Assembly (NCBI RefSeq): GCF_037392515.1
Contig: NC_090294.1
Span: 14,347,038 to 14,411,037 of the forward strand
Length of the DNA stretch: 64,000 bases
Direction of reading: 5' to 3'
From: Haliotis asinina
Taxonomy: Eukaryota
Shown: piece after piece, positions 18,396 to 39,184 of the stretch
How positions within the stretch are numbered: position 1 is the stretch's first letter
Layout: each line of letters starts with the position of its first letter
Translations under genes and position numbers: made by a program
The notes under the pieces: model-generated
What the model was told of the DNA's origin: nothing
What the model saw: the letters and a program-made list of their open reading frames with translations, nothing else
Databases searched by the model: none

Positions 18396-21300
18396 TATCC
18401 GTCAGTATTAACCGTATATAGAAAATGGCGTCTTTGAACTAATAAGAACTTACACAGGTGCAACACAGAACTGAGAATTTGAGGATGGAGACAGAAAGAT
18501 GAGGAACTGTCTTGCACCAATAATTCTGATGACGAAGTGGACCGTGGCAGAATGACATGTCTGTGTTGGTCTGATGCAAGGCTGTACATGTTACTTGAAT
18601 GTGATGTGCAGGGTAAAACACAACTTTGCAGATTCTGATACTTTTCCGTATGTGCTTATCGAAACAATTTTTCAAAATGCCAATCCAGCCTATAAAGCTG
18701 AAAAACACCGTGAAATCGGAGTTCAAACGATTCACGTTTTTTCCCCAGCGTTGTGGTAAAAAGTAGTTTCAACAGCTACTCTGCGCTCTTAACGCATGCC
18801 CTGAGAATAGGTTCGCATAGCTTGAAACAATATGCATGCCCGGGGTATGAGGTCGTGAGCAGTAATCTAATCTTGGTTGTGTACACAAATAAGTAAATAA
18901 TCTACACGTTACTTGAGAAAACAACATGGTGATTGCGATAAGCAGACTCTGTCACGAAGAAAACAGAATTAATGTCTGGTTTATTCACACCCGTATGACT
19001 GCCTGCCCGACTGCCTGCCTATTTACTAATGACAATATGCAATACACAACTTCAATCACTGACCACGTGCATTTTGAAATTAACGCTTATCGGGCTTATA
19101 AACAAAGAGCCGGCTAAGTGTATCGGCTAAAGAACCAGTGGCCAAATGAAAAGGGTTCGTTACACTTGAGTGCGCACCCACTCTGCCTGGGTTCGGTATC
19201 GCGGCTGCTTCGTTCTGAGAGAGGTAAACCAAAGTACAAAATATTGCACTTTTGACTTGCGATCATACGCTTATAATTCTGTTTATTTGTTTTTTTTCTT
19301 TATCAGCAATGCACTTTAGATATAATAAATAAGGTATAACGGTGGTTTAATTATGTTTGATTTGTTTTGTTGCATTTGACCTTTAATAGCGATTTTCCTG
19401 TCTGTGACTAATGTATAAGTATAGATCCAAGAAAGGTATTTACTGACGTAGGTTGGAGTGATAATTCATCTCCGTGACGTCCAAGTACCGATAAACACTG
19501 CTCAACCGTAATCCATATACTATTTTCCACCAACTTATAACACATACTTCCACAAACTAAGTCTTGAATGTCCGAAGGAATGTTATCAAAAATATTACCA
19601 ACGCCTAAGCACATCAGTCATATTTACCATTTAATGATAGGTATTCCATGAAAAAAAATAGATGTTCTCATCCATAGTCTGTAATGTATTTCGCACAATT
19701 TATAATTTAGTGGTCTTATAAGTTAAATGCGATTAATTCTACTCAATATGTTTTGCCACTTTACATTAATAAGCCTCTGTTTGAACATGAATATAAAATG
19801 ATTAAACCTGCCATTATCATGACTAAACCACACAAATTCAAACCCAGTGGTTTTAACAAACATTTTAAATATGATGTCCAAGTATATCTACCAGCTGAGT
19901 GGAGATTTTTTTCCAACAAAATGTAACATTGTTAATGAAACCTTTCAGATACTTAAATACACACCAGCGGCGTAGACATGTAACTTAATAACCAATACGT
20001 ATACAATATCCACCACAATAAGCTAATATATCATTATTAGAAACATGTTTACAAGCACAATTTTACAGAGATTTGTATGAAATTTGTCAATCAACTGTCG
20101 CTCGTGATAACACCACACTCTTGCACCCAAAAGTATAAGTGGCTTCACTTTGGCATCAAAGAGCTTAAAAAGATTATTAACTGGATACTCGTGGATTAGC
20201 ATTTTAATAGAAAACAATACGTTGTTAGCTATGGTTGATGGTGTCTTTGTGCTTTTAGTCAATGACAGTCGGGTAGAGAAGAGTATTCCAAGACAAATGT
20301 AGTACGTAGAAATGTTTAGCTGCTCATATAGTACTTCGATAAGTTTCACAGTGAAACATTGTGTTGATTCTTTCATTTAAGGGTGTTATTCGCAGTATTT
20401 TAGCTGGAAGATTAAGAACTATCACATCCACCGAAGCGCTCTGAAAATCTTCGTCTTTCCTTCACTCACATCTTCTCGTGGATCACAGAAGATGGTGATT
20501 ATCCGACATCATCTCGGACAATTAACAAGGTATGCGGGGAAAGGTGTAAACATAAACTGGAGCGCTCTAAAACAAGAAGCAGTAACTCGTCCAGTCACAG
20601 AAAGAAACGAAATATCTCGTTCTTCCAACAGACGGTTATATCAACATCTGAGAAAAGAATATATGTCATGTGGGTAATAGTATCACCAGCAGTCGCTACG
20701 CTTCCGGGTTTTGTTGTAAACAGCGAAACTGGAGAATTAGTCTTAAAGTTATCCGCAACGAGTGCACATACAAACGGGTGTCATGAGTCACGACAAGGAA
20801 GGAGGCATAACTGGGCTGATGCCCTACCAATACGTCCACGTATTGGATCTGGTGAGCTATTTGAGAGGTCAAGTTATTGACAGGTGCTCGTCACTTCTGC
20901 TCGGGTCACCGTCGATCGCTCAATTCACTGGGTCATGAGCAGTCGACCTGCACATTGCAAATTTAACAGTGACCTGCAAACCCGCTGACATGTTTCGAAT
21001 TACGTTTCTGTTCCCAAGGTTCATACAACTCTAGTTTAATGTAATCGTTTTCAATTAGCGATATTTCCTTTGAATTTGATCGATCTTGAGATGAGTCAAT
21101 TGACTGCCAATAGTCAATCACCGAATCAGTCGTTCAGCCAGGTTTCTCAATTTATATCTGCAAACGACGTGTCTACATCGCTCACCTCAGTGTAGTTTAA
21201 TTACCCTAATTATAATAATGAGTCGGTCATTTTTATTGATCCGTAGATATATGCTGGCTATTACTCTGATGGATGGGACTCAACCCATCAAACGTACTAG

Positions 21301-21848: not shown

Positions 21849-21982
21849 ACAACGAACATCACACGGCTGGAAGTCGGGCCACAGACCCTTGTCCTGAAGA
21901 GTAATGAACGTCTGGAGGCTGGACCTCTACCTATGATTGTTGTTCCTCCTGGTCACTACATCAGTGTCACAGACCCAGTCAG
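21849..21982 (+). CDS. MVP: MVP coding exon (first one found; encodes TTNITRLEVGPQTLVLKSNERLEAGPLPMIVVPPGHYISVTDPV)
   Basis: Acceptor ttctttgttgcag|ACAACG, donor CAG|gtcagt. Aligns to human MVP [45 protein letters not shown]. Confidence 0.85.
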
Positions 21983-22039
21983 GTCAGTTGATCTTGGTCA
22001 CTACTTTAACTGTTGCAGACCCCATCAGGTGAGGTCATC

Positions 22040-23095
22040 TCAGTCACCAGAGCAGTGACACAGACCCCATCAGGTGAGGTCACATCAGTCACCATAAATG
22101 TGTCACAAACCCCATTAGAAGAGGTCATCTCAGGCCCCAAAACAGTCACAGACCCCATCAGGTGAGGTCATTTCAGTCACCATAATAGTGTCACAGACCG
22201 CATCAGGTGAGGTCTTCTCAGTCACTATAACAGAGTCACAGTGCCCATCAGGTGAGGTCACGTCAGTCGCCATAACAGTGTCACAGACACCATCAGGTGA
22301 AGTCACATCAGTCACCATAGCAGCGTCTCAGACTCCAGTGGGTGAGGTCACCTCGGTCACCATAACAGAGTCACAGACCCGTTCAAGTCCGTTCTTCCCC
22401 GTCAGCATGGACCTAAGAGGTCCCATCACATGTTAATCTGTGATAGTGTCACAGACCGCATCAGGTGAGGTCATCTCAGTCACCATAACAGAGTCAAAGT
22501 GGCCATCAGGTGAGGTCATGTCAGTCGCCATAACAGTGTCACAGACACCATCAGGTGAAGTCACATCAGTCACCATAGCAGCATCACAGACCCCTTTCAG
22601 GTGAGGTCATCTTGGGCCCCAGTACAGTGTCACAGTCCCCATCAGTTGAGGTCATCTTGGTCACCATAATAGTGTCACAGACCCCATCAGGTGAGGTCAT
22701 CTCAGTCACCATAAATGTGTCACAAACCCTATTAGAAGAGGTCATCTCAGGCCCCAAAACAGTCACAGACCCCATCAGGTGAGGTCATCTTGGTCACCAT
22801 AACAGTGTCACAGACCCCATCAGGTGAGGTCATCTCAGTCACCATAATAGTGTCACAGACCGCATCAGGTGAGGTCTTCTCAGTCACTATAACAGAGTCA
22901 CAGTGCCCATCAGGTGAGGTCACGTCAGTCGCCATAACAGTGTCACAGACACCATCAGGTGAAGTCACATCAGTCACCATAGCAGCGTCTCCAGTGGGTG
23001 AGGTCACCTCGGTCACCATAACAGAGTCACAGACCCGTTCAAGTCCGTTCTTCCCCGTCAGCATGGACCTAAGAGGTCCCATCACATGTTAATCT
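22040..23095. repeat. Minisatellite with ~60-bp GTCACAGACCCCATCAGGTGAGGTCAYCTCAGTCACCATAA-type units; a ~380-bp higher-order block (22060-22440) is near-identically repeated at 22700-23095
   Basis: Direct reading. The unit resembles the exon end plus donor immediately upstream (GTCACAGACCCAGTCAG|GTCAGTTGATCTTGGTCAC). Confidence 0.9.
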
Positions 23096-23253
23096 GCCAA
23101 TACTAAATGTTAGCATCACATCTGGTAGTTGGTCCAGAAAGACAGATGACAACCTCTGAGCCTTTACCGTGATGTTGCTCTTGTTAACAGTTGTATGTTT
23201 CTAGGTGTTGATGAAGATGTCTTATGTTTACTTTGTTGCTGTTTCATTTCTAG

Positions 23254-23317
23254 CCACTATGAGGCAGGCAAGGCATGTGAGCTCAAACTTGGGCAAAAGG
23301 AAGTAAGACTCCATCAG
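23254..23317 (+). CDS. MVP: MVP coding exon (S)HYEAGKACELKLGQKEVRLHQ
   Basis: Acceptor tttcatttctag|C, donor CAG|gtaggt. Completes NPVS-like DPVS across the splice. EVRLHQ|DPFPLYPG corresponds to human EIRLAQ|DPFPLYPG. Confidence 0.75.
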
Positions 23318-23623
23318 GTAGGTAACATCAATCAAAGGACTCATTTTCCTTTAGATACCATGGTGTTTCCAAGACAGTGAGGTCAAAATGATGTACATTA
23401 ATCCATATAGATATATATTTACTGCAGAACAATTGAGGTAGAATAGGGAGGTAGCAGACAAATTTTGCATTTGGTCTGAAGTGCATTGTCCTGAGTCTGA
23501 TTGTGGTGTTCAATGATCCAGTAAACAATGCCTAAAACAGAAACAGTCCCCTTTGCCATTCTTTTCTTCACCACATACTGTAGATACTACCTTCATGAGC
23601 CTGAATCTCTCTTCTTCCTTCAG

Positions 23624-23848
23624 GACCCATTCCCTCTTTACCCAGGTGAATCGCTCACACTGGCTCCAGAATACGTCCAGCAGCGGGGTCAGTACCAGAA
23701 GGCTGTCCGTCCCCTCCCTGTTATCAAAGCCAACCATGCCATCCGCCTTCGTGCCCTCCTAGACCTGGAGGACTCAGGGGTGAAGAGGAAAGAAGAGGAG
23801 ATGTGGCAGCTGCCTGGACCGCTGACCTACATTCCTAGAGCTGATGTG
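23624..23848 (+). CDS. MVP: MVP coding exon DPFPLYPGESL...GPLTYIPRADV
   Basis: Acceptor cttccttcag|GACCC, donor GTG|gtgagt. Strong match to human DPFPLYPGEVL...GPGTYIPRKEV. Confidence 0.9.
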
Positions 23849-24140
23849 GTGAGTAGGCTACATTCCTAGAACTGGTGTGGTGAGTAGACTACATTCCTTG
23901 CACTGATGTGGTGAGAAGGCTACATTCCTAGCGCTGATGTGGTGAGAAGGCTACATTCCTAGCGCTGATGTGGTGAGTAGGCTACATTCCTAGTGCTGAT
24001 GTGGTGAGAAGGCTACATTCCTAGCGCTGATGTGGTGAGTAGGCTGTATTCCTAGAGCTGATGTGGTGAGTAGGCTACACTCCTAGAGGTAATATAGTGA
24101 GTAGACCGCATTCCTAGAACTGACATGATGAGAAGACTGA
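23826..24140. repeat. 31-bp tandem repeat x ~10 (CTACATTCCTAGNGCTGATGTGGTGAGTAGG) reiterating the exon end and GT donor
   Basis: Direct reading. The first unit is the genuine exon/intron junction GATGTG|gtgagtagg. Confidence 0.9.
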
Positions 24141-24222
24141 AATGTCATAAGATAATGTCCTAAAGTTAATGAAGCAGTGTATCTGATGAGTTCATACACT
24201 TAAAGTGTGATGTTATTAAATA

Positions 24223-25754
24223 TTAATCAGGGGTTCAAAAATCCCATCGCCCGACGCCCGGGACAAGGCAGATTTCATTTCGGGCGTATAAATAATGATA
24301 TCTTACTTGCCCATGGGCTACCTGATAATTACTGCAATGCTTACGGTTCCAACAGGTAAATGTGAGACGATACGAGAGCAAAATGAGGGAACTTTCGCAA
24401 TGATAATAAACTAGAGTTATCTTTCTTTGCTATTTATCCCTCCCCGATCGGGGCCTCGCAGTAAAGCTATTGGAAACCGAAGCGAGCATTTTTATAAATG
24501 ACTGACCAATCACTGACAAGAGAGCCGGCAGGCACGTTTGAGTGAACTGTCAGACCGCGGCTGAATAGCAGACAACTGCCTCGTGTTTTATAAAAAAAAA
24601 AACATGTCACAGAAACTGATGGACAGTTTTTTACAATCGGACACAGGGGTGAAAAGGAAGACCTTGGGTGATGACACCGAAGCCGAGGTTTGCACCAAAC
24701 AATCTAAAGATAAAAAGTACGACAACGAGAAACGGTGTAGACAGTTTCAGAAGTCTTGGTGTTCAAAATGGCAGTGGTTACTTTACAACGAAGAAAAAGA
24801 CATTATGACTTGTGAATATTGTGCACGATTTCCGTCTGTATCCACGAGACATGGGGTAAAGAACACTTTTGTCAGTGGGTGTTCAAAATTCAGAGTAGAA
24901 TATCTGAAAATCCATGACAGTTCAGCCGTTCATGCCGAGTGTTTGTCATATTATTATTATATTCATAGCGGTGAAACCGGTGATTTGGAGGTTGGGGCAA
25001 GCTGCGATAAAGTAGAGAGAGACGGGAAACTTTTGAAGTGTTTTAAAAACATGGACAAGAAGAATTACGATCAAATTGAGAAACTGTTTGTGACAGCATT
25101 TCTCATTGCCAGCAAAGGAAAACCACTAAGTGATTTTGCAATGCACTTAGACTTACTTGACAGGGTTGGTGTGGACATAGGGCATAATTACATAAACATT
25201 GATGGTGCGAGCAAGTTTATTCAAGCAATTTCACATAGTTTGAAAAAAGACTTCCAATCAGATATTAATGAAGCAAACTATGTATCCATTCTTAGTGATG
25301 GGAGTACTGACTCGGCAATTCTTGAACAGGAAACTGTGTTTATTCGTTATGTAAGCCATGGTGTTCCAGTTTCATTCCATGCTGCAGTTGTAACTCTAGA
25401 TCATGCTACTGCTGATGGGGTGTTGGATGGAATAAAAACTACTCTTGAAATGAACGATATTTGTTATGAAAAGCTTGTATCACATGACTGTGAGGGGCCC
25501 AAACTAGTGTCTGCAAACTTTGATGTTCTGTATAAAAACAGTGCCAATTATTACCTGTAAAGAGAGAAAAAAGACGTCCAAACAGTAAACAATAACATCA
25601 AATACCATGTTGATTTATTCTTTCACAATATCATCACAATTATGTCATAAAAATCAGGGCAAGTGGAAAATTAGTCAGGACAAGTTACTTTCTTGAAGTC
25701 ACTTGCCCTGTGGCAAGTGGCTTTTAAAAAAAATTTTGAACCCCTGATTAATTA
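24223..25754 (+). mobile_element. Non-autonomous hAT-superfamily DNA transposon (~1.5 kb) with 18-bp TIRs, inside an MVP intron
   Basis: TTAATCAGGGGTTCAAAA at 24224-24241 and its reverse complement TTTTGAACCCCTGATTAA at 25735-25752. Subterminal GC-rich repeats. Internal ORF has zf-TTF and DUF4371-like hAT transposase regions but lacks the C-terminal hAT dimerisation domain. Confidence 0.75.
24583..25560 (+). pseudogene. Truncated hAT transposase-like ORF (zf-TTF + DUF4371-like, 325 aa)
   Basis: W-x-FPWL-like KSWCSKWQWLLYNEEKDIMTCEYCARF...FVSGCSKFRVEYLKIHDSSAVH (TTF-type zinc finger). FIQAISHSLKKDF...SILSDGSTDSAILEQETVFIRYV (DUF4371-like). Confidence 0.65.
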
Positions 25755-25832
25755 TTAGCTTTCATACACTCACATGTTTATTATGTTCAGTGAAACCGGT
25801 TGTTAACTGTTGTTACTGTTGCCATGTTACAG

Positions 25833-25924
25833 GAAGTTGTCAAGGTTGTGCAGCCATTCATCATCAGGAATGGAGATTCCCTAAATCTACGGGCCATTCA
25901 GGACTGTTATGACAATGATGGAAA
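25833..25924 (+). CDS. MVP: MVP coding exon EVVKVVQPFIIRNGDSLNLRAIQDCYDNDG
   Basis: Acceptor tgttacag|GAAG, donor AA|gtaagg. Matches human [30 protein letters not shown]. Confidence 0.85.
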
Positions 25925-27457: not shown

Positions 27458-27527
27458 CAAGCGAGTGACTGGTGAAGAATGGCTTGTGTCAACACCAGGG
27501 GCTTATGTACCAGGAGTGTTTGAAGAG
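27458..27527 (+). CDS. MVP: MVP coding exon (N)[23 protein letters not shown]
   Basis: Acceptor ccattttcag|C, donor GAG|gtgaga. Matches human [23 protein letters not shown]. Confidence 0.9.
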
Positions 27528-28894
27528 GTGAGACAAAATCTGTTTGCTTTCTGAATTACAGTAAGTCATTGTACGGAGTGATCTGTGGGCTAGTAACCAA
27601 GACCATGACTCCTAAACTGAACACAGACTTAAAACAGTCTTAGTACTAAGGTTGCTTTGTTTAACTGCACACAGGGCTTAATGTTATGACACACGCATGC
27701 ACAAAATAGCTCTAATATCCAGCAACAAGTGCTGCGCAAAGGAGATTCCAAGTGCTTGAGTAACTGGATATGGTCTGTTTGCAGTTGAAGGGTACTGATG
27801 AATTTCACTTTAATCAGTAATGTAAATGAAATAAAGTAAAATTAAGGTTGTGAATCCTCAGAATTTTACCTTGCCAACTGAAAATTCCTATCTTAGAATA
27901 ATAATCAACTTTGGAAAGAGTTGGACACTGCTGACAATAGAAAATATGAAAAATCTCAAGTCTGATTCACCACTACGAACCATCAAGGTCCTTATGATCA
28001 AATGACCAGATGGTCTTACTCTTGTCAGTTATGATGCACGAAAATGTTCATGGACAGATCATTTGAAAGGCACGGACCATACTAATGGAACAGTCTACCA
28101 TCTGACATTCCGTGTGTACGTTTACGTCAACACATAAGATGCATTATTACAGACATGCATGCTGTAACCACAGTCTGTTTGCAGTGAAAATGTACTGATG
28201 AAGTTTACTTTAAACAAAAAGGTAAATCAAATAAAGTGAAGTTAAGGTTGCAAATCCTCATAATTTTACCTTGCCATTTGAAAAGTTTCAGGATTTTGTT
28301 CAACTTAGGATAAAAATTGTTTAAAAAACAATCATAGTTTCAAATCGCTATTATTGGTTTGTATTACAAGAGTTCATGCACATTAAACAAAATACCAAGA
28401 CAGTGTTCGCGTTAGTGCAGAAACATGTTTTTCAAGCAAAACAAATAATAAAACCAAAATCACAAAAAATATTTAGCATGCAGCTTTTGGACACATAGAT
28501 TCTGATCTACATAATTTTAGAAAGTATCTTAAAATTGCTACATAAACACAACCAATAAATTTTAACATGATTCCGGATTGGGCTGAAATTTCTTGCGCAA
28601 AAAGTTTGGACTACATATTTATGACTTTATTTCTGCACAGAGTCATACAAAACCTACCGCAACCACTGCCAAGAACATCGGAGGGTTGGTCTAACTTAAC
28701 ACTCATCACATACTGCACATGCATTTCTTTCTCTGTTTCAACTACTGCGCTTACTCCCTTGTAATACAAAAAAGTTCATAAGCGATTTGAAACTATGATC
28801 ATTAGTTGGCTCATGACGTATTTATAAAATTTCTGATAATTAGAGAATTAAGATGGATAAATATTCACTTCAACTGTATTGTGTTTCACTGTAG

Positions 28895-28989
28895 GTACTC
28901 GGTGTGAAATCAAAGATAACCTTGACCCATGATGCTGGCCTTCACCTTCGTGCCACTCGGACATTAACTGATGCGTATGGTGACAGCAG
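28895..28989 (+). CDS. MVP: MVP coding exon VLGVKSKITLTHDAGLHLRATRTLTDAYGDS(R)
   Basis: Acceptor tcactgtag|GTACTC, donor CAG|gtaaat. Matches human [32 protein letters not shown]. Confidence 0.85.
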
Positions 28990-29139
28990 GTAAATTATGT
29001 GGTTAAATCATCCTTTTGTCCATTTGGGTCATTCGGACTGCAGCTGTGGATAGACTTAGTATGTGTTGTATTACCCATTCTCAGTGAAGTACAGATTCCT
29101 GTACTTTGGTTGGGTTTGGCTTGATTTGGTTAGTTGTTT

Positions 29140-29390
29140 CTATGCTTCACTGATCAATATTCCAGCTGTGTGGCGCCGGTTTGTAAATAATTGAGTCCGG
29201 ACCAGACAGTTAAGTGGACAATAGCATGAGCATCAATCTTTACACTTGGGATATGATGACTTATGTCATCCAACTGAGCAAGCCTTACTACCCAATCTCA
29301 TTGGTCTGATTTTACAACAGGCATGGGTTTCTGAAGACTGATTCTCAATTTTTTAGGGGTTGGGCCCCATCTGGAGACTGTGTTCATAGT
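29140..29390 (-). mobile_element. SINE family B copy (minus)
   Basis: Reverse complement gives CAGAAACCCATGCCTGTTG...GATTGATGCTCATGCTATTGTCCACTTAACTGTCTGGTCCGGACTCAATTATTTACAAACCGGCGCCACACAGCTGGAATATTGATCAGTGAAGC. Confidence 0.75.
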
Positions 29391-29728
29391 CATGGATATG
29401 TTAATTGTTTGGTATCAAACTTGTGTGTTTTTCAAAAGTTGACTACAGTCCCCCATGCTTGTCATTAGTGTAGATCACTTGACTATTTAGAGGTGGCCAT
29501 TTTGTTTGCCACAGTGTTGCAACAGAAAACAAACGACCCTTGCTAAATGTTCCACTTAGATAGTTTCCCAACAACCTATGTTACAAGAAGCATTTGAAAC
29601 ACAAAGGAGCAAATGATGGCCAGTCTTTGTACCCCAATAATTGTAGCTCACAAAAATAAATCACTGGATAAATGTATGTACTGATGTGAAGTACACTCAG
29701 TGAAGGGTGTGTGATGTTTTTGTTGCAG

Positions 29729-29795
29729 GTTGGCTGGAGATGAATGGCTTCTGACAGGAGAAGAAACTGATAGTTATTTTCCTGAAGTTGGAGTG
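29729..29795 (+). CDS. MVP: MVP coding exon (R)LAGDEWLLTGEETDSYFPEVGV
   Basis: Acceptor ttttgttgcag|G, donor GTG|gtaatt. Matches human [20 protein letters not shown]. Confidence 0.85.
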
Positions 29796-29837
29796 GTAAT
29801 TCAGTCCTAGTTCATAGATGTTTTGGTAAAGAATATG

Positions 29838-30000
29838 AGTGTGTGAGTGAGTATGGTTGGATGCTACTGTAATCAATATTTCAGCAATATCACGGAACAC
29901 ACCAGAAATGGACTTCACATATTGTATCCATGTAGGGAATCAAACCCGGGACTTCTATGCGACAGGCGAACACTTAAACCACTGGGCCATTCCACCACCT
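29838..30000 (-). mobile_element. SINE family A copy (minus)
   Basis: ACACCAGAAATGGACTTCACATATTGTATCCATGTAGGGAATCAAACCCGGG is the reverse complement of the family A core. Confidence 0.8.
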
Positions 30001-30849
30001 TGGTAATGAATGTGTATAAGATTTAGAGGTGATGTGTGATGTATGTGTTGTCATTGATATGTGTAGGTGATCTTGTGGTATAAGGGACCGATCCCTATTT
30101 ATAGGTAAGTGTTGTGATGATGATTTAGTGGGGAGGGCGGGTACTCATTTTGTTCTGGGGAGGTAGGGGGATCATCACTTGTACAGATGATGATTAAAAA
30201 TTATGGGATGGGGAGTGGTGGATCACTAATTTTGTACAGTACACGCAGGATGGGTCTCTTACTTTGTACATACTTTTTTTTGAGGAGGTGATTCACGGGG
30301 ATGGGGATTCACGTCGCATATGCTTCACCATAAAAATCATCACCCCTATCCATAAATTATCCTCGATCGTATTGATGTGATCAGTACAGTGGAAGCTGTC
30401 TAAACAGGCACTCACAGGGACTGAAGAAATGATCCTGTTTAGACAATGTGCTGGATTGGAGAGCTGATGATAAATGTATATGCCACCGATGGGACTGAGA
30501 TTTTGTGCTGGTGTTTACAACTTGCCGGATTGGACAGATGCCAGTAATGACAGCTTCCACTGTAATTAGAAGGTGTGCACAAAGATGTAAATGCGTGCTA
30601 TATTTGTATTTGCGTCTTTGTGTACACCTTCTGCTGATGATGTAGACTCTGTGGGTGCAGTCAGTGCTGTTGCTGGAAATGATGATGGTGTTTTCCCAAT
30701 ATTTTTTGCGACTGTGGTGTACATAATTTTGATGTAGGTGTAAGTAATGATAATAAAGATAACTGTACATTTATAATTCACTAAATTCCATTCACTCGGT
30801 GAATGCTCATAGCTCAACAGTCTTTATTACCCTAGGTAATCCAGCCTGC

Positions 30850-31093
30850 CAGTAAGGCACTAGGATATTCATCACATGACTTATCCCACCAGGTACCCAT
30901 TTTCTGCTGGGCGAACAGTTGTAAGGTAGTTGAAAAAGCCTTCACTCATGACAATAAAGCCCCGAGTTTGATTCCCCACATGGGTACAATGTGTGAAGCC
31001 CATTTCTGGTGTTCCCTATTGTGATGTTTCTGGAGTATTGCTAAAATCAGCATAAAACACAACTAACTCACTCACTCACTCACTCACTCACTT
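30850..31093 (+). mobile_element. SINE family A copy with (CACT)n tail
   Basis: GAGTTTGATTCCCCACATGGGTACAATGTGTGAAGCCCATTTCTGGTGT...GGAGTATTGCTAAAATCAGCATAAAAC...ACTCACTCACTCACTCACTCAC. Confidence 0.85.
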
Positions 31094-31165
31094 TGTTAAT
31101 GATGTGCATGAAATAGTTAAAGACAGTGTTGATGTAGTCGGTAACCAAGACATGTCCTGCTGCAG

Positions 31166-31307
31166 GAGGTCGTGAAGCAGGTGAAGAAGACAGTGGTCAG
31201 CAAGGGTCAGTACTGTGTTGTCCTTGACCCTGTAGATGAAGACAAGAGGCCATGCCTTGGAAAGCGGGTGCTGAAGAAGGGGTTGTGTACATTTTTCCTT
31301 CATCCAG
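31166..31307 (+). CDS. MVP: MVP coding exon EVVKQVKKTVVSKGQYCVVLDPVDEDKRPCLGKRVLKKGLCTFFLHP(G)
   Basis: Acceptor tcctgctgcag|GAGGTC, donor CCAG|gtaaac. Matches human [35 protein letters not shown]. Confidence 0.9.
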
Positions 31308-31539
31308 GTAAACAAGAGCGGCACATTTCCTTACTCTCGACTTTTCACACAGTCACAATGACTGAGGCAGTTTTAATTCTATCACCTTAGAAGACAAGTT
31401 AGCCAGAAAATATGCCTGTTGTCTTAAACGTTTCAGCTGGTAATAAACTTGTCATTTCAGTGGCAAAACAGTACAGATATTACAGGTATCAAAGCGGGGA
31501 ATGCAGTATTAGGTTCTGTTCGTATGTTTGTATGAAGTG

Positions 31540-32070
31540 GAATATCTTGAGAACTTTTCTTTAGATTTTTTTCATATTTGGTACCTAGGTTCACCACAGT
31601 ATAAGAAAGGTCCCAGTCAGATTTGGTGACCTTGACCTTTATTTCAAGGTCAGAATGGGATGTTGACGTTTTACCCTTGCCATCGAGATATCTCACTGGA
31701 TTTTCTTCATATTTAAGATAGGGCTTGTCTTGGCAAGGCGCCAGCCCCAGCCAATTTTGGTGACCTTAAATCCACTTAATTGTCAAAGTGTTGTTGACAC
31801 TTTGAAGATGCCAGCATGTTAAGGTGCATGTTAAGCTGGTCGGCAAGATATCTCAAGTACTGTTTGCTGGATTTTCTTCATATTCAACAACAAATTTTAT
31901 CTAAGGCATGTGCAGGGCCCAGTTGATTTCAAGGTCACTGTGACACTTTGAATATTCCAGCATATTACACAGCCTGTTAAGATTGTCAGCAAGGTAAAGA
32001 CTTTGTACACTTTCAAGACTTTCCTTGAATGTTTTTCAATAAGCAATTTCTTAAATACCATTTGGGCATA
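31540..32070. repeat. ~175-bp tandem repeat x3 in MVP intron
   Basis: Reiterated GGATTTTCTTCATATT...GGTGACCTT...CAAGGTCA...GACACTTTGAA...CCAGCAT...AAG..GTCAGCAAGATATCTCA blocks. Confidence 0.6.
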
Positions 32071-32139
32071 TATTTCATACTCTAAGACATTAATGTCAAA
32101 GTCCGAGTGAACCTTGAAAATATTTGTGTGTTTGAACAA

Positions 32140-32325
32140 CTACAAACGGGATCGAGTGGCAGGCTTGGTTGACAAATGTCAGTGTATCGCTATTGAGTAG
32201 ATCAGTGCTCATGCTGTTGGTCACTGGATTGTCTGGTCCAGACTGTATTGTTTACAGACCACTGCCATATAGCTGGAGTATTGCTAAGTGTGGTGTAAAA
32301 CCAAACTCACTCACTCACTGAAAGT
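32140..32325 (+). mobile_element. SINE family B copy (5'-truncated) with (CACT)n tail
   Basis: GATCAGTGCTCATGCTGTTGGTCACTGGATTGTCTGGTCCAGACTGTATTGTTTACAGACCACTGCCATATAGCTGGAGTATTGCTAAGTGTGGTGTAAAACCAAACTCACTCACTCAC. Confidence 0.85.
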
Positions 32326-32354
32326 TATGACATTTTGTGTCTTCCCATGTTTAG

Positions 32355-32456
32355 GTGAGAGGCTTGAGGATGGCATACAGAACTCCCATGTCCTGTCAGC
32401 TGATGAGAGCCTCGTCCTCCAGGCCACGGGAGCATTTACTGATGATATGTTTAAAG
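32355..32456 (+). CDS. MVP: MVP coding exon (G)ERLEDGIQNSHVLSADESLVLQATGAFTDDMFK(G)
   Basis: Acceptor ccatgtttag|GTGAGAGG, donor AAAG|gtatgg. Matches human [36 protein letters not shown]. Confidence 0.85.
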
Positions 32457-32809
32457 GTATGGACAATATTATATTATTATTATTATATATTTAAAGGAGT
32501 GGCTAGTAATAACCTGAGTAGGCTTGTGTTAATGTATCAGATCCCACAGATCCCATCTTACTTTGCCTTTGTTCACCAGCAGAATAAATGGGTGCCCAGT
32601 AGGATAAGTTATGTGCTTATTAACCTTCTTGTGCCTTGGATGCAGCTTTAGGTATCTGAGGTAATTATGTGCCATGCTTTAATTGTTGTTGTCCTCAGCA
32701 TGCATGAGATTAGCGCATTACAAATGCACTTATTATACTAAAGCCATGTGAAGCTTGTTTATTTGCAAAAGTGAAGAGTTTTTACATATTGTTTTTTTTT
32801 TTTCAACAG

Positions 32810-32900
32810 GAAAGCCTAAAAGAAAGCCAGGTGATTTGTGGTTGATCCGAGGACCACTCGAGTACATCCCACCCATTGAAGTGGAGATTGTGAAGAAAAG
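32810..32900 (+). CDS. MVP: MVP coding exon (G)[29 protein letters not shown](R)
   Basis: Acceptor t-rich tract caacag|GAAAGCC, donor AAAAG|gtaatg. Matches human [25 protein letters not shown]. Confidence 0.9.
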
Positions 32901-33168
32901 GTAATGATATCTTGTAGTGTTATAAGACTGGTAGTGGTGTCCTATCCTGTTAATGTACCATGAAGAGAAGTCGGTCTACCCACACTTCGAAATAAAGATC
33001 TTGAGGAGTTCTAGATCTATCCACCCTTTGTCGAAATTGGAACTTGTGAAGGGATGGTAGGTTGATCAAATCAGACTCCTAAGTAGTGATTGGGAAGAGA
33101 ATTTAGCCCTTGTTGTTGAATAATGTGAATCACAAGGTATCACAAGACATCTCTCTTATTTGTTCCAG

Positions 33169-33229
33169 AGAAACTATGCCGCTTAGCAAGAATGAGGGTA
33201 TCTATGTTCAGAACAGGCAGACAGGGAAG
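33169..33229 (+). CDS. MVP: MVP coding exon (R)ETMPLSKNEGIYVQNRQTGK
   Basis: Acceptor tttgttccag|A, donor AAG|gtacgt. Matches human [20 protein letters not shown]. Confidence 0.9.
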
Positions 33230-33329
33230 GTACGTTCACAAAATCAGATGCTGGTGGTAATGGACAATAATGTACTCTGCAAGATTTACTACAATTCAGA
33301 CTAGCTAATGAGACAAAGGACACACTATC

Positions 33330-33590
33330 TGGCAGGATGGTAAAGTGGACACTCCTTATGCCAAACATTGGTGTTTAATTTCCCACATGGGTACAATATG
33401 TGAAGCCAATTTCTAGTCTCCCCTGTTGTGATGTTGCATGAATATTGCTAAAAGCAGCATAAAAGTCCACTCAAGTCTCACTCACACTCCCACTGACCCA
33501 TCCTGTCACTCACTCACTCACTCACTCACTCACTCACTCACTCACTCACTCACTCACTCACTCACTCACTCACTCACTCACTCACTCTGC
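33330..33590 (+). mobile_element. SINE family A copy followed by a long (CACT)n tail
   Basis: TTTCCCACATGGGTACAATATGTGAAGCCAATTTCTAGTCTCCCCTGTTGTGATGTTGCATGAATATTGCTAAAAGCAGCATAAAAG... then (CACT)~20 at 33507-33588. Confidence 0.85.
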
Positions 33591-33664
33591 TTTTCTCCAT
33601 ACAGTTTGACCCCATTTTCAGAGTTAACAAATGTGCAGATAAATGATTTTATGAGCAATATTTT

Positions 33665-33765
33665 GGTAGGGAACACCAGAAATGGGCTTCACACATTGTA
33701 CCCATGTGGGGAATTGAACCCATGTCTTTCACCACTAGGCTACTGCACCGGCCCCGCCATGAAGA
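33665..33765 (-). mobile_element. SINE family A fragment (minus), inverted relative to the copy at 33330
   Basis: AACACCAGAAATGGGCTTCACACATTGTACCCATGTGGGGAATTGAACCCATG... with tRNA-like head CACTAGGCTACTGCACCGGCCCCGCC. Confidence 0.8.
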
Positions 33766-33865
33766 GACCGGCCATCAGAGATATTTTTCAAGTTACCATT
33801 CAACGTTATTTCGCACTGAGGGGTCCCGAAGTCACCTGTTTGATAATTTATGACTGTCTCTTCAG

Positions 33866-33960
33866 ATAAGAAGTGTGATGGGGCCATGCTCGTACATGCT
33901 GAATGCACACGAGGAACTATGGGAGAAACCATTAACTCCAGAGGTTGAGGAGATACTCAG
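33866..33960 (+). CDS. MVP: MVP coding exon IRSVMGPCSYMLNAHEELWEKPLTPEVEEIL(R)
   Basis: Acceptor tgtctcttcag|ATAAGA, donor CAG|gtaccc. Matches human [30 protein letters not shown]. Confidence 0.9.
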
Positions 33961-34573
33961 GTACCCAGTGGACTCTTCCATAATTATCTTCAAATGATGG
34001 TTTTCACAACTACATGTATATCATAGAAGAATTTAAATATTTTATCAACTTGCGGAAATAAGGATTGGTTGGTGTAGGGGTGGAAATATTTGTTGTTTTG
34101 TATTTTGACTTCATATCATTCAGCAATGTAATCATTTAATATTGCATCCAGTACAGTTCTGTAAAATTAAGCATTTCCCTCTTTTAAGATCCTTTCATCA
34201 CTGAAATTCAAGTCACTATGATGAAAGCATCTGCCAATACTATATTTGCATATCATCGTACGTCTAGATTCCTGTTAGGTGACGTTTATAAAAAATTAAT
34301 GAGCTTTGGCATATGATCAAAGCCATATAAATCCCTGCTTCACCTGTATGCTGTCTGTCAAGAGTCAGGTCTTACCTCTTTATGTTCATAGAGATAGCAA
34401 ATGAAGTGTTTTTAGAAAATATGATGAATAAGAAATAATAATATGTATTGCAAGCCTTTATTATGTAAGATGTCATTTATGATTGCTTTCCCATGACGTA
34501 GACAGAGTAAGGCCCTCTGCTAAATGGAGTTTCATTGAAGTGTTAATGTGTCTGTTTTTTTAAATATTTCCAG

Positions 34574-34652
34574 GAATGGTGGTGGCATCGGTGATGGAAA
34601 CATTCGAAAACTGGCATACTACGAGCAGTCCATCAATCCAAGTATTCTCATG
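34574..34652 (+). CDS. MVP: MVP coding exon (R)NGGGIGDGNIRKLAYYEQSINPSILM
   Basis: Acceptor atatttccag|G. Donor ATG|gtactg is a weaker donor, chosen for frame continuity with the next exon. Corresponds to the variable human NKGQDPLADRGEKDTAKSLQPLA segment. Confidence 0.65.
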
Positions 34653-34994
34653 GTACTGTTGATATTGAGCACAATACTGTTGTTTCATCACTGTTATAAA
34701 AAAACACATGTCAAATGTTTTGTAATTAAAAACAAGTCAGTAAGATGAGACTTGACATAAATTTATACACTAATTTAGGCCAGTGTTGTCATGCTAGTTT
34801 ATGATCACTATCACTGACTGTCTGACAGTAGATGTTAAGGAGATAAACATACTATGTTTAAAAACCAGAGGTATATAACAAAATTACAATAAATCTAAAT
34901 TTAATTCAAAACCAAACATGTAGATTTGATGTGTTGTTCCTGATCAGCACACAGGTATATCTAATGTCTAGATTTGACAATGGTTGACATCTTG

Positions 34995-35215
34995 TAGAGG
35001 TGAGGAAGAGCTATGTTTGTCGTAAAAGGCGACTAATGGGATTGGGTGATCAGGTTAGCAGACATGGTTGACACATGTGATCATAGCCCATTTTGTGTAG
35101 ATCAGTGCTGATGATGGTGATCACTTGATTGTCTGAACCAGATTCAATTATTTACATTTATAGCTAGAATATTGCTGAGTCCAGTGTTAAACAACAAACC
35201 AAACAACTATTTGTC
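34995..35215 (+). mobile_element. SINE family B copy
   Basis: GTCGTAAAAGGCGACTAATGGGATTGGGTGATCAGG...GATCAGTGCTGATGATGGTGATCACTTGATTGTCTGAACCAGATTCAATTATTTACA...CTAGAATATTGCTGAGTCCAGTGTTAAAC. Confidence 0.75.
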
Positions 35216-35290
35216 AGTTATGGCCTGGCCATTCAGATCTGTATCCTACTGATTTCACTTATTATGTTTTCTTTCATTTTTTTTTCTCAG

Positions 35291-35347
35291 GGCAGAAACA
35301 GAACCAAAATAGTTACATACCGTTGTCCCGGTAACACAGCTGTCCAG
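35291..35347 (+). CDS. MVP: MVP coding exon GRNRTKIVTYRCPGNTAVQ
   Basis: Acceptor ttttttctcag|GGC, donor CAG|gtgagt. Matches human PRNKTRVVSYRVPHNAAVQ. Confidence 0.9.
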
Positions 35348-35647
35348 GTGAGTTGTGCATGAACAGGTGATTAATATTTGTGGAAAAGAGAATGAAAATT
35401 GTAGAGGTAACATGCATACACTATGGTATAACATGGTTGTTTATGTTGTTTGTTTAAATTGTTACCCTGGTAGCAGTACACTGAAAGACATTTCTAAAAA
35501 CATGTTACAATATGTATGTTATTTTGGTAGTGTATGTTTTGATTATGCTAAGTCTGAAGGAAGAACTATTTGCACTAACACCTCAAGTTTTGTTTTGCTG
35601 TTTACACAGACATAAGAAGTAATATATATATAGAAAATTCTCTCACA

Positions 35648-35945
35648 TAATTGACCCATGAAGGTCTGGGGTAGAATAGGCCTTCAGCAACCCATGCTTG
35701 CTGTAAAAGGTGACTATAAGAGGCGAATAACAGGATTGTGTGGACAGGCTTGCTGCCTTGGTTGACACATTTTATCATTTCCGCAGATTGGCGCAGATTG
35801 ATGGTCATGTTGTTGATCACTGGATTGTCTGGTCCAGACTTGATTATTTACAGACCACTGCCACATAACTGGAATATTGCTGGGTGCAGCATAAGCCTAA
35901 ACTCACTGACTCATTCACTCACTCACTCACTCACTCACTTACTGT
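35648..35945 (+). mobile_element. SINE family B copy (full length) with (CACT)n tail
   Basis: GGGGTAGAATAGGCCTTCAGCAACCCATGCTTGCTGTAAAAGGTGACTA...GATTGATGGTCATGTTGTTGATCACTGGATTGTCTGGTCCAGACTTGATTATTTACAGACCACTGCCACATAACTGGAATATTGCTGGGTGCAGCATAAGCCTAAACTCACTGACTCATTCACTCACTCAC. Confidence 0.85.
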
Positions 35946-36075
35946 CACATAATTTGTTGTTTGTTTGCTGTAACAAAAGGCAAACTCTTCAAGTCTTCAA
36001 AATATGTTTGGTCCATGATCAATTTTTCCCATTTTCCTGAACCAGTACTTGATCACACTTGTGACAATCTTGCAG

Positions 36076-36172
36076 GTGTACAATTATATGCAAAAGACTG
36101 CGAGGGTAGTGCTCGGGCCAGACCTCATCATCCTGGGTCCACATGAAAACTTCAACGTGCTCAGTCTCAGTG
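36076..36172 (+). CDS. MVP: MVP coding exon [32 protein letters not shown](G)
   Basis: Acceptor atcttgcag|GTG, donor AGTG|gtcagt. Matches human [33 protein letters not shown]. Confidence 0.9.
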
Positions 36173-36244
36173 GTCAGTAGATACTTGATGTACTGGCCAT
36201 AGATATATTTAATTCCAGTTTTGTGTTCATCGTTGTCCATTTAC

Positions 36245-36425
36245 TTAATTACCCATGAATCTCTGGGTTAGGCTTGATCTTCTATAACCAATGCTTGTCC
36301 TAAGAGGTGACAAATGGGATCAGGTGGTCAGGCTTACTCACTTTACACATTCTATCCCATTTCCTCAGATCGATGCTCTTGATCACTGGATCACGCACTC
36401 ATCGACTTAATTTCAAGTGATCCCA
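36245..36425 (+). mobile_element. SINE family B fragment (5' part)
   Basis: CTCTGGGTTAGGCTTGATCTTCTATAACCAATGCTTGTCCTAAGAGGTGACAAATGGGATCAGGTGGTCAGGC...GATCGATGCTCTTGATCACTGGATCA. Confidence 0.65.
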
Positions 36426-36755
36426 TTCTTCTATGTTTCATATTGTACTGTTAGTGCTTTAAGAGCCTATCTTGTTTGTATGACAAAGTGGTCTCATCTC
36501 CAGTGTTTAATTTTGCATGGGATTTGGGATCCTAAAAGGTAATAATCCTGATTAGGCCCTGCCCTTTCTACATACATATGTAATTATGAAATAAATATTA
36601 GGTGTACGTACAATGACATCTGTAAGATTGAAGCTGGCCACAAAACTACCAACTGCTGTGATGATGAAAACTTGTACATTTTATTATATTTCACTCTAAA
36701 GAGAGTGTGATTTTTAATTTCTTTTTTTTTGTTTGTTTGTGTGTGTGTACATCAG

Positions 36756-36835
36756 CTGGCAAGCCCAAGAAAGCCAATGCTTTGAAGTCACTATGCATGA
36801 TGTTGGGGCCAGACTTTATTACAGATATTCTTGAG
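36756..36835 (+). CDS. MVP: MVP coding exon (A)GKPKKANALKSLCMMLGPDFITDILE
   Basis: Acceptor gtacatcag|CT, donor GAG|gtaaga. Matches human [28 protein letters not shown]. Confidence 0.9.
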
Positions 36836-37221
36836 GTAAGAAGATCTTTGCATTCCATGATTTTTATAGAGAAGCATATCCCTCCCCTTCGCCTTCTCCA
36901 CCTGTACAAAACAACGACGCCCCATCCACCCCACCACCCCTTCTAGGGAATCACTACATTAACCCCCTAGCCGTAAGTTTTGAATGTTTCCTATGTATTT
37001 TGTTTTAAATTATTTACATTGATTTTTGCAAAATATGATTTCAAGTTGAAATGTGCAAATGTTGTGAATCATCCTGATTTGCCAAAGTCCCACTTTGGCC
37101 ATTGTGATATTGTTGACCAATCATTGATTGAGACTGAACATTACCCATAACCCATTATCCATTCTTATGTTTCTGTGACACGTAGAACTTACTTAACATG
37201 GCTTATGTTTTTTGCATGCAG

Positions 37222-37281
37222 GTTGAGACTGCAGATCATGCAAGACTAAAAATCCAAATAGCATTCAACAATCATTTCGAG
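37222..37281 (+). CDS. MVP: MVP coding exon [20 protein letters not shown]
   Basis: Acceptor ttttgcatgcag|GTT, donor GAG|gtaatt. Matches human [20 protein letters not shown]. Confidence 0.95.
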
Positions 37282-37407
37282 GTAATTATTTATATATTTC
37301 AAGAAATGATGATATTTTTTTAGTTATTTACATAGATTTTTTGTTTATATTTATAAGATACAATAAATATATGTTATATTCTGTAAATGTAGATAATTTC
37401 TTCACTG

Positions 37408-37582
37408 CTCATGAGGGGAGGTTGTAAAGCCTAGTGGTTAAAGCCTTCACCTTCTTGCTAGAAGATCCAGGTTCAATTCCCCACATGGTTGCAATTTGTG
37501 GAACCCATTTCAGGTGTCTGATATTGCTGCAATATTGTTAAAAGCAGCATAAGACTAAATTCACTCACTCACTACATCGAAC
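37408..37582 (+). mobile_element. SINE family A copy with CACT tail
   Basis: GCCTAGTGGTTAAAGCCTTCACC...CCAGGTTCAATTCCCCACATGGTTGCAATTTGTGGAACCCATTTCAGGTGTCTGATATTGCTGCAATATTGTTAAAAGCAGCATAAGACTAAATTCACTCACTCAC. Confidence 0.85.
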
Positions 37583-37605
37583 TTGAATGTGTGATTCACT
37601 TTCAG

Positions 37606-37684: not shown

Positions 37685-37714
37685 GTAAGTATGATGTTGT
37701 TCCCCTAAACTAGA

Positions 37715-39125: not shown

Positions 39126-39184
39126 GTAGGTGGCAATGAAACTGTATAACAATTCATTACTGTCCTTTGTGTCTTCTGTGGCTA

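What the first reader, a model, noticed from the sequence alone, without database searches (positions are those of the whole stretch)
21960..24140. Two MVP introns begin with tandem arrays that reiterate the upstream exon end plus its GT splice donor
After the exon ending at 21982 (…GTCACAGACCCAGTCAG|gtcagt), the intron holds ~1 kb of ~60-bp units of the form GTCACAGACCCCATCAGGTGAGGTCATCTCAGTCAC. Each unit carries a consensus-like CAG|GTGAGG donor and resembles the genuine junction. After the exon ending at 23848 (…GCTGATGTG|gtgagtagg), the intron opens with ~10 tandem 31-bp copies of CTACATTCCTAGNGCTGATGTGGTGAGTAGG. Each copy reproduces the exon's last ~20 nt plus the donor. Two independent arrays of decoy 5' splice sites in one gene is unusual. 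It suggests recurrent replication slippage at exon-intron junctions and could cause alternative 5' splice-site use or cryptic exon extension.
Basis: seen in the sequence. Interest (0 to 1): 0.65.

Follow-up and report, generated by a model that had tools for sequence, protein, structure and literature searches.

The report
Intron repeats copied from splice junctions
Two introns of an apparently intact mollusc major-vault-protein gene each begin with a tandem repeat made by copying the exon end and its splice donor, leaving about 25 splice-donor-like sites in register with the units (17 of them as strong as typical real donors) that would all give broken mRNA if used; it is a real and unusual curiosity, but probably a neutral by-product of DNA duplication.

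Summary
Array 1 (about 21950-23066) has roughly 24 units of 45 bp, not ~60 bp. Array 2 (23827-24136) has 10 units of 31 bp in strict register. Each array starts inside a coding exon of an MVP gene on the + strand, and its first unit is the true exon-intron junction. The exon parts encode conserved MVP residues. A bivalve orthologue has introns at the same positions and phases, with no arrays. So the junctions are ancestral and the arrays are later local duplications. Neither unit occurs elsewhere in the 64 kb or in the metagenome contigs scanned for both (array 2 also absent from viral contigs). Only these 2 of 19 donors and 0 of 20 acceptors have local self-copies. Array 1 holds 13 CAG|GTGAGG decoys that score above the true CAG|GTCAGT. 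Array 2 holds 4 exact copies of the true donor 9-mer. Every decoy would cause a frameshift or premature stop, yet the gene looks intact. I found no sign of selection on the decoy donors and no structural masking. Most likely these are junction-seeded intronic minisatellites, with the first donor used and any decoy products removed. Whether decoys are used needs RNA data. Interest is moderate.

The parts
20783..20851 (+). MVP exon 1 coding part (MSHDKEGGITGLMPYQYVHVLDL|gtgagc)
   Evidence: Motif search; collinear with the Solemya (P0001) and P0166 N-termini.
21849..21982 (+). MVP exon A. It ends ...GTCACAGACCCAGTCAG|GTCAGT, with 2 nt of a Ser codon completed by C at 23254.
   Evidence: The same intron position and phase occur in Solemya velum.
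21950..23066 (+). Array 1: about 24 units of 45 bp. The first unit is the last 33 nt of exon A plus about 12 intron nt. Consensus: CAGTGTCACAGACCCCATCAG|GTGAGGTCATCTCAGTCACCATAA. It is interrupted by a 35-nt non-repeat spacer at 22409-22443. The terminal degenerate units are 22366-22410 and 23022-23066.
22141..22443 (+). Higher-order block duplicated at 22803-23099 (291 matches over 303 and 297 nt). It includes the array's original 3' flank (22333-22440 is 100% identical to 22989-23096).
23254..23317 (+). MVP exon B (C + HYEAGKACELKLGQKEVRLHQ|gtaggt)
   Evidence: Same intron position in Solemya.
23624..23848 (+). MVP exon C (DPFPLYPGE...LTYIPRADV|gtgagt), ending in phase 0
   Evidence: Same intron position in Solemya.
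23827..24136 (+). Array 2: 10 units of 31 bp in strict register, CTACATTCCTAGNGCTGATGTG|GTGAGTAGG. Unit 1 is the true junction (22 exon nt plus 9 intron nt). The last two units are degenerate.
24217..25757 (+). DNA-transposon remnant in intron C, about 80 nt beyond array 2. It is separate from the array. It has terminal inverted repeats at 24217-24240 and 25734-25757 and an ORF at 24583-25560 with a C17orf113-type zinc finger.
25833..25924 (+). MVP exon D (EVVKVVQPFIIRNGDSLNLRAIQDCYDNDG...), the acceptor side of the intron that starts with array 2
27458..43234 (+). Remaining MVP exons, about 21, with no frame disruption found: 27458-27527, ~28895-28990, 29729-29795, 31166-31307, 32355-32456, 32810-32900, 33169-33229, 33866-33960, ~34608-34650, 35291-35347, 36076-36172, 36756-36835, 37222-37281, 37606-37684, 38980-39125, 39865-39965, 40917-41143, ~42017-42097, ~42730-42810, 43112-43234 (stop).

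Best explanation
These are two independent, lineage-specific intronic minisatellites. Each was seeded by a small tandem duplication that straddled an ancient MVP exon-intron junction: 45 bp at the exon A donor and 31 bp at the exon C donor. The most upstream copy remained the working exon end, held by selection on conserved codons. The downstream copies fell into the intron, where they were free to multiply and drift by slippage or unequal exchange. Array 1 also grew by larger multi-unit duplications. As a by-product, each intron now opens with a row of strong donor-like sites. The inferred part is this: the first, authentic donor is the one productively used. Transcripts spliced from a decoy carry a frameshift or premature stop and are presumably lost to nonsense-mediated decay. 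On this reading the arrays are neutral or mildly costly and have no evolved function.
For: Shown:
- Both arrays begin inside the exon, in register with the real junction.
- The exon portions encode residues conserved across MVPs: DPVS versus DPMS in Solemya and NPVS in human; YIPRADV versus YHPTPNV and YIPRKEV.
- Solemya velum has introns at the same three positions and phases, with no array at either intron start. The junctions therefore predate the arrays.
- The units are absent from the rest of the 64 kb and from metagenome contigs; the array 2 unit is also absent from viral contigs.
- In array 1 the two edge copies, the true junction and the terminal unit, share GTC.GTT where interior units have GTGAGGT. 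That is the pattern expected when interior units homogenise and edges do not.
- Blocks 258, 617 and 662 bp apart are 98-100% identical, showing continued array turnover.
- All 25 in-register decoy donors give a frameshift or a stop. In array 1 the stop falls at codon 25 of the read-through and the frame shifts by 1 or 2 nt for most decoys. In array 2 there is a TAG 6 codons in.
- The gene is otherwise intact: every spliced block is open (703 aa), and the four exons missing from those blocks plus exon 1 were found.
- Donor columns are not clearly better conserved than the rest of the unit. In array 2 the mismatch rates are 9.9% against 10.6%. In array 1 the donor window ranks 5th of 37.
Against: - Thirteen array 1 decoys (CAG|GTGAGG, about 11.4 bits on an approximate matrix recalled from memory) look stronger than the real donor (CAG|GTCAGT, 8.6 bits). 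Four array 2 decoys have the same donor 9-mer as the real one.
- In vitro, two identical strong donors splice almost wholly to the downstream, intron-proximal one (PMC3413131).
[quoted passage not shown] Harmless tolerance therefore cannot be taken for granted.
- By a rough estimate of my own, there is a 1-2% chance per array that a random unit straddles one of about 27 donors. The two largest minisatellites in the window both doing so looks non-random.
- There are no RNA data, no population data and no close-relative genome to test usage, polymorphism or age.
Confidence: 0.68

Rival explanations
1. Unproductive-splicing sink. The decoy donors are used at an appreciable rate, so a share of MVP pre-mRNA is diverted into frameshifted or stop-containing isoforms that are degraded. 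Array length then sets MVP output, either as a regulated mechanism or as a tolerated cost.
For: - Decoys are as strong as or stronger than the true donors, and all lead to premature stops.
- Identical tandem donors favour the downstream site in vitro (PMC3413131).
- A duplicated junction disrupts splicing in human FGG (PMC9052919).
- Predicted RNA structure does not hide the decoys: mean unpaired probability is 0.30 and 0.43 against 0.40 for true donors, p = 0.10 and 0.84.
Against: - The gene is intact and MVP is conserved, so a heavy loss of product would be selected against.
- There is no sign that the donor motif is preferentially preserved within units.
- No transcript evidence is available.
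Confidence: 0.2
2. Functional U1 snRNP landing pad or self-healing array. The donor-like repeats recruit U1 snRNP to help the upstream donor, transcription or suppression of premature polyadenylation. Alternatively, in array 1, each CAG|GTGAGG acts like a recursive (zero-length-exon) splice site, so splicing from the true donor to a downstream unit's CAG regenerates a valid exon end.
For: - Donor-like sites are very dense: 13 sites of at least 8 bits in 1.06 kb and 4 in 0.29 kb, against 1.28 per kb in the rest of the gene.
- In array 1 the best-conserved block is GGTGAGGTCA, with donor columns at 7.8% mismatch against 14.7% elsewhere.
- Array 1 units carry AG|GT, the juxtaposition used in recursive splicing and in the tandem-duplication model of intron gain (PMC3265369, listed).
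Against: - The conservation excess is weak, uncorrected for relatedness of units, and absent in array 2.
- Array 2 has no AG before its GT.
- The tract before the CAG in array 1 is pyrimidine-poor.
- The introns are short (1.27 and 1.98 kb), so recursion is not needed.
- The arrays are absent in Solemya.
Confidence: 0.06
3. Dispersed satellite or transposon-borne repeat that only happens to resemble the exon ends; or an assembly artefact.
For: A transposon remnant lies in the same intron as array 2. Mollusc genomes are repeat-rich (my own knowledge). Only 64 kb of this genome could be examined.
Against: - There are no copies outside the arrays in the window or in the metagenome collection scanned for both units (array 2 also absent from viral contigs).
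- Array 2's first unit is the coding exon end itself, identical to the consensus of the other nine units at all 31 positions.
- The transposon's inverted repeat starts about 80 nt beyond the array.
- Units have diverged (mean pairwise identity 79% and 84%), which does not fit a read-stacking artefact.
Confidence: 0.05

Closest known systems
Intronic minisatellites / VNTRs, including tandem repeats associated with splicing variation in humans (PMC10078293)
   Same: Head-to-tail units of 10-100 bp inside introns. Growth by slippage or unequal exchange, with higher-order blocks. Potential to influence splicing of the host gene.
   Different: Here the first unit is the authentic exon end plus its donor, so every unit carries a copy of a real 5' splice site. 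I found no description of such an array in four relevant full-text searches.
Single tandem duplication of an exon-intron junction: human FGG exon 8-intron 8, 403 bp, congenital afibrinogenemia (PMC9052919)
   Same: The duplicated segment straddles the junction and so duplicates the donor site.
   Different: The FGG case is one extra copy of a much larger segment. It is pathogenic, with mostly aberrant transcripts carrying premature stops. Here there are about 9 and about 23 extra copies of 31-45 bp in a gene that appears intact.
Intron gain by tandem duplication of an AGGT-containing segment (PMC3265369; PMC4974935)
   Same: A small tandem genomic duplication supplies ready-made splice signals. 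Array 1 units contain AG|GT.
   Different: No new intron was created. Both introns pre-exist at the same position and phase in a bivalve. Array 2 lacks AG|GT.
Competing or pseudo 5' splice sites studied in vitro (PMC3413131)
   Same: Several equivalent U1-binding sites upstream of one acceptor. The decoys here fit that definition.
   Different: Those are engineered two-site substrates. This is a natural array of 8-18 sites whose use is unknown.
Tandem alternative donors (GYNGYN-type), from my own knowledge
   Same: Reiterated donor motifs next to an exon end.
   Different: Those are 3-6 nt apart and give subtle in-frame isoforms. Here the spacing is 31 or 45 nt, and every alternative is out of frame or contains a stop.

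Membership tests
Intronic minisatellite / VNTR | Head-to-tail tandem units of about 10-100 bp | tested here: met
   Period 45 x 24.3 copies and period 31 x 9.6 copies; register confirmed.
Intronic minisatellite / VNTR | Lies within an intron of the host gene | tested here: met
   All units but the first lie in introns 21983-23253 and 23849-25832.
Intronic minisatellite / VNTR | Copy number varies between individuals | not testable with these tools
   No second genome of the species was reachable; exact-ORF look-ups found nothing.
Exon-intron junction tandem duplication (FGG-type) | The repeated segment contains exon sequence, the GT donor and intron sequence in their native order | tested here: met
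   Array 2 unit is 22 exon nt plus 9 intron nt. Array 1 unit is up to 33 exon nt plus about 12 intron nt. The exon part matches the array 1 consensus at 19 of 21 positions.
Exon-intron junction tandem duplication (FGG-type) | The exon copy is ancestral: conserved coding sequence, with the intron position shared by outgroups | tested here: met
   Conserved residues; identical intron positions and phases in Solemya velum, without arrays.
Exon-intron junction tandem duplication (FGG-type) | Causes aberrant splicing | not testable with these tools
   No transcript data. Only the predicted consequence is available: all decoys are unproductive.
Dispersed satellite / transposon-borne repeat | The same unit occurs at other, unrelated loci | tested here: not met
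   No matches outside the arrays in the window or in metagenome contigs; array 2 unit also absent from viral contigs. The rest of the host genome could not be searched.
Dispersed satellite / transposon-borne repeat | The array is bounded by transposon termini | tested here: not met
   The only inverted-repeat element nearby spans 24217-25757, about 80 nt past array 2. Nothing comparable flanks array 1.
Intron gain by tandem duplication (AGGT model) | The intron is absent from orthologues that lack the duplication | tested here: not met
   Both introns are present at the same position and phase in Solemya velum.
Recursive splice site | A 3' splice-site motif (pyrimidine tract + AG) directly abutting a 5' splice-site motif, in a long intron | tested here: inconclusive
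   Array 1 units have CAG|GTGAGG, but the tract upstream (CACAGACCCCATCAG) is pyrimidine-poor and the intron is only 1.27 kb. Array 2 has no AG|GT.
Coding tandem repeat (array is exonic) | One reading frame stays open through the array and continues the exon frame | tested here: not met
   ORFs in array 1 are 50-112 aa pieces in shifting frames. The exon frame hits a stop at codon 25 in array 1 and codon 6 in array 2.
Structured RNA family | Match to a curated covariance model, or unusually stable fold | tested here: not met
   No relevant Rfam hit in 20000-26000 at E <= 1. Fold z-scores are -2.6 and -1.1 for array 1 and -0.2 and +1.5 for array 2.

The most novel reading that the evidence does not exclude
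The arrays are not inert. By placing 8-18 strong U1 snRNP binding sites just downstream of a real donor, they tune MVP output in one of two ways: by diverting a length-dependent share of transcripts into decay-targeted isoforms, or by acting as U1 landing pads (with array 1's CAG|GT units able to re-splice recursively). That would make copy-number variation at a junction-derived minisatellite a heritable dial on gene expression. It would also be a natural test of how the spliceosome chooses among identical donors in vivo.
Probability: 0.12. Interest if true: 0.7.

Novelty: new variant of a known kind. Interest (0 to 1): 0.4.

Why it matters
Single duplications of a splice junction are known as disease mutations, and intronic minisatellites are commonplace. 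A long array built from a working exon-intron junction, found twice in one intact gene, combines the two. I found no description of this in the searchable literature. If RNA data show clean use of the first donor despite up to 13 stronger decoys downstream, that contradicts the in-vitro rule that the downstream of two identical donors wins, and it gives a natural substrate for studying donor choice. If the decoys are used, it would be a case where repeat length sets how much transcript is wasted. On its own it is a well-documented curiosity rather than a new mechanism.

Tried and rejected
1. RNA-structure masking of decoys. The unit 1 core (GACCCCATCAGGTGAGGTC) is near-palindromic, and two adjacent units fold with z = -2.6. 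But the mean unpaired probability of the 9-nt donor window is no different from real donors or from 28 other pseudo-donors. Dropped.
2. Selection on the decoy donors. Column-wise conservation shows no effect in array 2 and only a weak, unconvincing one in array 1.
3. Coding repeat or antisense gene. No continuous ORF.
4. Known RNA family. None.
5. Gene-wide tendency to duplicate junctions. The other 17 donors and all 20 acceptors are negative.
6. Link to the neighbouring transposon. Its inverted repeat starts about 80 nt past array 2, so no direct link.
7. Resemblance of the exon B donor junction to unit 1. It scores 28, equal to the best unrelated background hits, and is largely shared donor consensus. 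Treated as chance.
8. Finding the same or a sister species. Three protein searches gave no MVP hit above 71% identity. Listed hits never exceeded about 1.75 times the query length, so full-length MVPs were probably never shown. Exact look-ups of window ORFs and of the Haliotis transposon protein found nothing. A single-exon search gave full-length MVPs useful only for completing the exon map.
9. Two literature searches were wasted through poorly chosen or unsearchable terms, and two calls failed on term syntax.
Full report
**What is in the sequence**

Tandem Repeats Finder reports two arrays. The first is at 21962-23036, with period 45, 24.3 copies and 74% matches. The second is at 23827-24123, with period 31, 9.6 copies, 87% matches and no indels. 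They are the two largest minisatellites in the 64-kb window.

The region is an MVP (major vault protein) gene on the + strand. A tblastn probe with human MVP, recalled from memory and used only for mapping, lines up exons from 21849 to 43225. Pfam vault domains are attached to the homologues found.

Splice-site and frame analysis gives three exons here:
- Exon A, 21849-21982, ending ...CCAGTCAG|GTCAGT.
- Exon B, 23254-23317.
- Exon C, 23624-23848, ending ...GATGTG|GTGAGT.

**Register with the junction**

Array 2 runs in a strict 31-nt register from 23827 to 24136.
- Unit 1 is the true junction: 22 exon nt plus 9 intron nt.
- The next seven units match it at 27-30 of 31 positions, and the last two at 25 and 23.
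- The three 31-mers upstream match at only 7-10 of 31, so the 5' edge is sharp.

Array 1 has a 45-bp unit, not ~60 bp. Its consensus is CAGTGTCACAGACCCCATCAG|GTGAGGTCATCTCAGTCACCATAA.
- The last 21 exon nt match the consensus at 19 of 21 positions.
- The periodicity reaches back to 21950, because TGGTCACTAC recurs exactly 45 nt later.
- The exon-only 60-mer scores 37 against the consensus, compared with a maximum of 28 among 4,178 other 60-mers in the window.

**Local or dispersed**

With up to 3 mismatches, the unit cores occur 15 and 8 times, all inside their own arrays, against 0 expected. Exact unit cores are absent from the metagenome contig collection, and the array 2 core is also absent from the viral contig collection. 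The rest of the host genome could not be searched.

**Which copy is ancestral**

The exon parts encode conserved MVP residues...TDPVS and ...YIPRADV here...KDPMS and ...YHPTPNV in Solemya velum...ANPVS and ...YIPRKEV in human.

The Solemya locus (L001) has introns at exactly the same three positions and phases (...CCTATGAG|gt...CACCAG|gt...AATGTT|gt), and no tandem array starts either intron. So the junctions are old and the arrays are later additions in this lineage.

Within array 1, the true junction and the terminal unit share GTC.GTT where interior units read GTGAGGT. That fits interior homogenisation with older edge copies.

Array 1 also contains nested multi-unit duplications:
- 22141-22443 matches 22803-23099 at 291 positions (over 303 and 297 nt). 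This includes a 108-nt stretch of the original 3' flank that is 100% identical.
- Other blocks lie 258 and 617 bp apart at 98-100% identity.

**How far it extends in the gene**

I tested 19 donors and 20 acceptors of the gene for local copies of themselves. Only donors 21982 and 23848 have any, scoring 41 and 69 against a background of 25 or less.

**Consequences if decoys were used**

I used an approximate 5' splice-site matrix recalled from memory, so treat the numbers as relative.
- The gene's 19 real donors have a median of 8.4 bits (range 3.9-12.5).
- The true donor of intron A, CAG|GTCAGT, scores 8.6.
- Array 1 contains 13 CAG|GTGAGG sites at 11.4 bits and five weaker sites (18 in-register decoys).
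- The true donor of intron C, GTG|GTGAGT, scores 9.5.
- Array 2 contains four copies with the same 9-mer, three GTGAGA variants at 7.8, and ATA|GTGAGT at 24096 (7.0 bits) in the ninth unit.
- Sites of at least 8 bits occur at about 12-14 per kb in the arrays, against 1.28 per kb in the other 18.8 kb of the gene.

Every decoy is unproductive. In intron A the first decoy adds 46 nt and shifts the frame, and all later ones include a stop at codon 25 of the read-through. In intron C every unit carries an in-frame TAG six codons past the true donor.

**Is the gene alive**

All spliced blocks translate without stops (703 aa). I found no frame disruption.

**Tests for function**

All were negative or weak.
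- Donor columns are no better conserved than the rest of the unit in array 2 (8 of 81 against 21 of 198 mismatches).
- In array 1 they are only modestly better (7.8% against 14.7%). The exact donor window ranks 5th of 37, and the units are not independent.
- Predicted accessibility of decoy donors does not differ from real donors.
- No frame stays open through the arrays.
- No Rfam family matches.

**Context**

Intron C also holds a roughly 1.5-kb DNA-transposon remnant. Its inverted repeats are at 24217-24240 and 25734-25757, and it has an ORF with a C17orf113-type zinc finger. Its best named relative is a Haliotis asinina protein, 95% identical over 62 aa. Together with MVP similarity to Bulinus (71%) and Solemya (56%), this suggests an abalone-like gastropod. 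The transposon starts about 80 nt past array 2 and is not part of it. Without the arrays and the transposon, both introns would be short: roughly 150 nt for intron C and about 240 nt for intron A.

**Comparison with what is known**

- Intronic minisatellites that affect splicing are well documented (PMC10078293).
[quoted passage not shown] - Tandem duplication of an AGGT-containing segment can create a new intron (PMC3265369 and PMC4974935). That does not apply here, because the introns pre-exist.
- Four relevant full-text searches found no description of a multi-copy array built from a working junction.

**Verdict**

Local origin by tandem duplication across the junction is well supported.

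The most likely reading is two junction-seeded intronic minisatellites that are neutral or slightly costly, with the first donor used and decoy products degraded (confidence about 0.68). The main live alternative is appreciable decoy use acting as an unproductive-splicing sink (about 0.2).

By my own rough estimate, a random unit has a 1-2% chance of straddling one of about 27 donors. Two such arrays in one gene is therefore unusual for a single window. Nothing indicates a special mutational mechanism. Interest is moderate: this is a clean natural substrate for studying donor choice, not a new kind of system.

Noticed in passing
window 24217-25757 (ORF 24583-25560, + strand): DNA-transposon remnant inside MVP intron C. 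It has 24-nt inverted repeats (92% complementary), a 325-aa ORF with a C17orf113-type zinc finger (E = 1.8e-8), and a 10-nt direct repeat TTCATACACT at 24191 and 25760. The best named relative is Haliotis asinina 'zinc finger protein 862-like', 95% identical over 62 aa, which hints at the source organism.
   Followed up: partly
window 23304-23335: The donor junction of the next exon (AGACTCCATCAG|GTAGGTAACATCAATCA) resembles the array 1 unit at about 25 of 29 positions. Its score (28) only equals the best unrelated background hits, and much of the match is the shared donor consensus.
   Followed up: partly
window 22016-23021 (array 1 units): The unit core GACCCCATCAGGTGAGGTC is a near-palindrome (14 of 19 self-complementary). 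The best-conserved block across units is GGTGAGGTCA, which contains an AGGTCA nuclear-receptor-type half-site every 45 bp. I did not test whether that means anything.
   Followed up: no
window 12443-12467, 31062-31092, 33506-33587, 35901-35943: The same tetranucleotide microsatellite, (TCAC)n or its rotation (ACTC)n, recurs four times on the + strand. Three of the four are inside MVP introns.
   Followed up: no
window 37886-38014, 40775-40868, 44474-44651, 58872-58951: Other low-copy minisatellites (54 bp x 2.4, 23/36 bp x 2-2.5, 56 bp x 3.2 at 99%, 40 bp x 2). For the two that lie within the MVP gene (37886 and 40775), no adjacent junction has a local self-copy; the 40775 array lies about 50 nt upstream of the acceptor at 40917 without copying it. 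The two outside the gene (44474, 58872) were not checked against any gene model.
   Followed up: partly
window 15961-16809 (+ strand): A 282-aa ORF upstream of MVP with no Pfam hit. By eye it looks like the C-terminal tail of a non-LTR retrotransposon ORF2. Not verified.
   Followed up: no
window 52693-52961: A long CTA/CTG triplet-repeat tract (52 triplets, with 9- and 33-bp higher-order periods). It could be a coding poly-Q/poly-S tract on the minus strand or simple sequence. Not examined.
   Followed up: no
window 22188-23092 (+) and 22747-23085 (-): Because the unit is 45 nt (15 codons) and stop-poor, array 1 carries repeat-peptide ORFs of 50-112 aa on both strands (for example VSQTPSGEVTSVTIT repeats). 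Indels shift the frame between pieces, so they are not one coding sequence.
   Followed up: yes
tool behaviour: In all three word-indexed protein searches the listed hits never exceeded about 1.75 times the query length (299 aa for 172, 419 for 240, 395 for 325). Full-length MVPs of about 850 aa were probably filtered out. The absence of a near-identical MVP therefore does not show that the species is missing from the database.
   Followed up: partly
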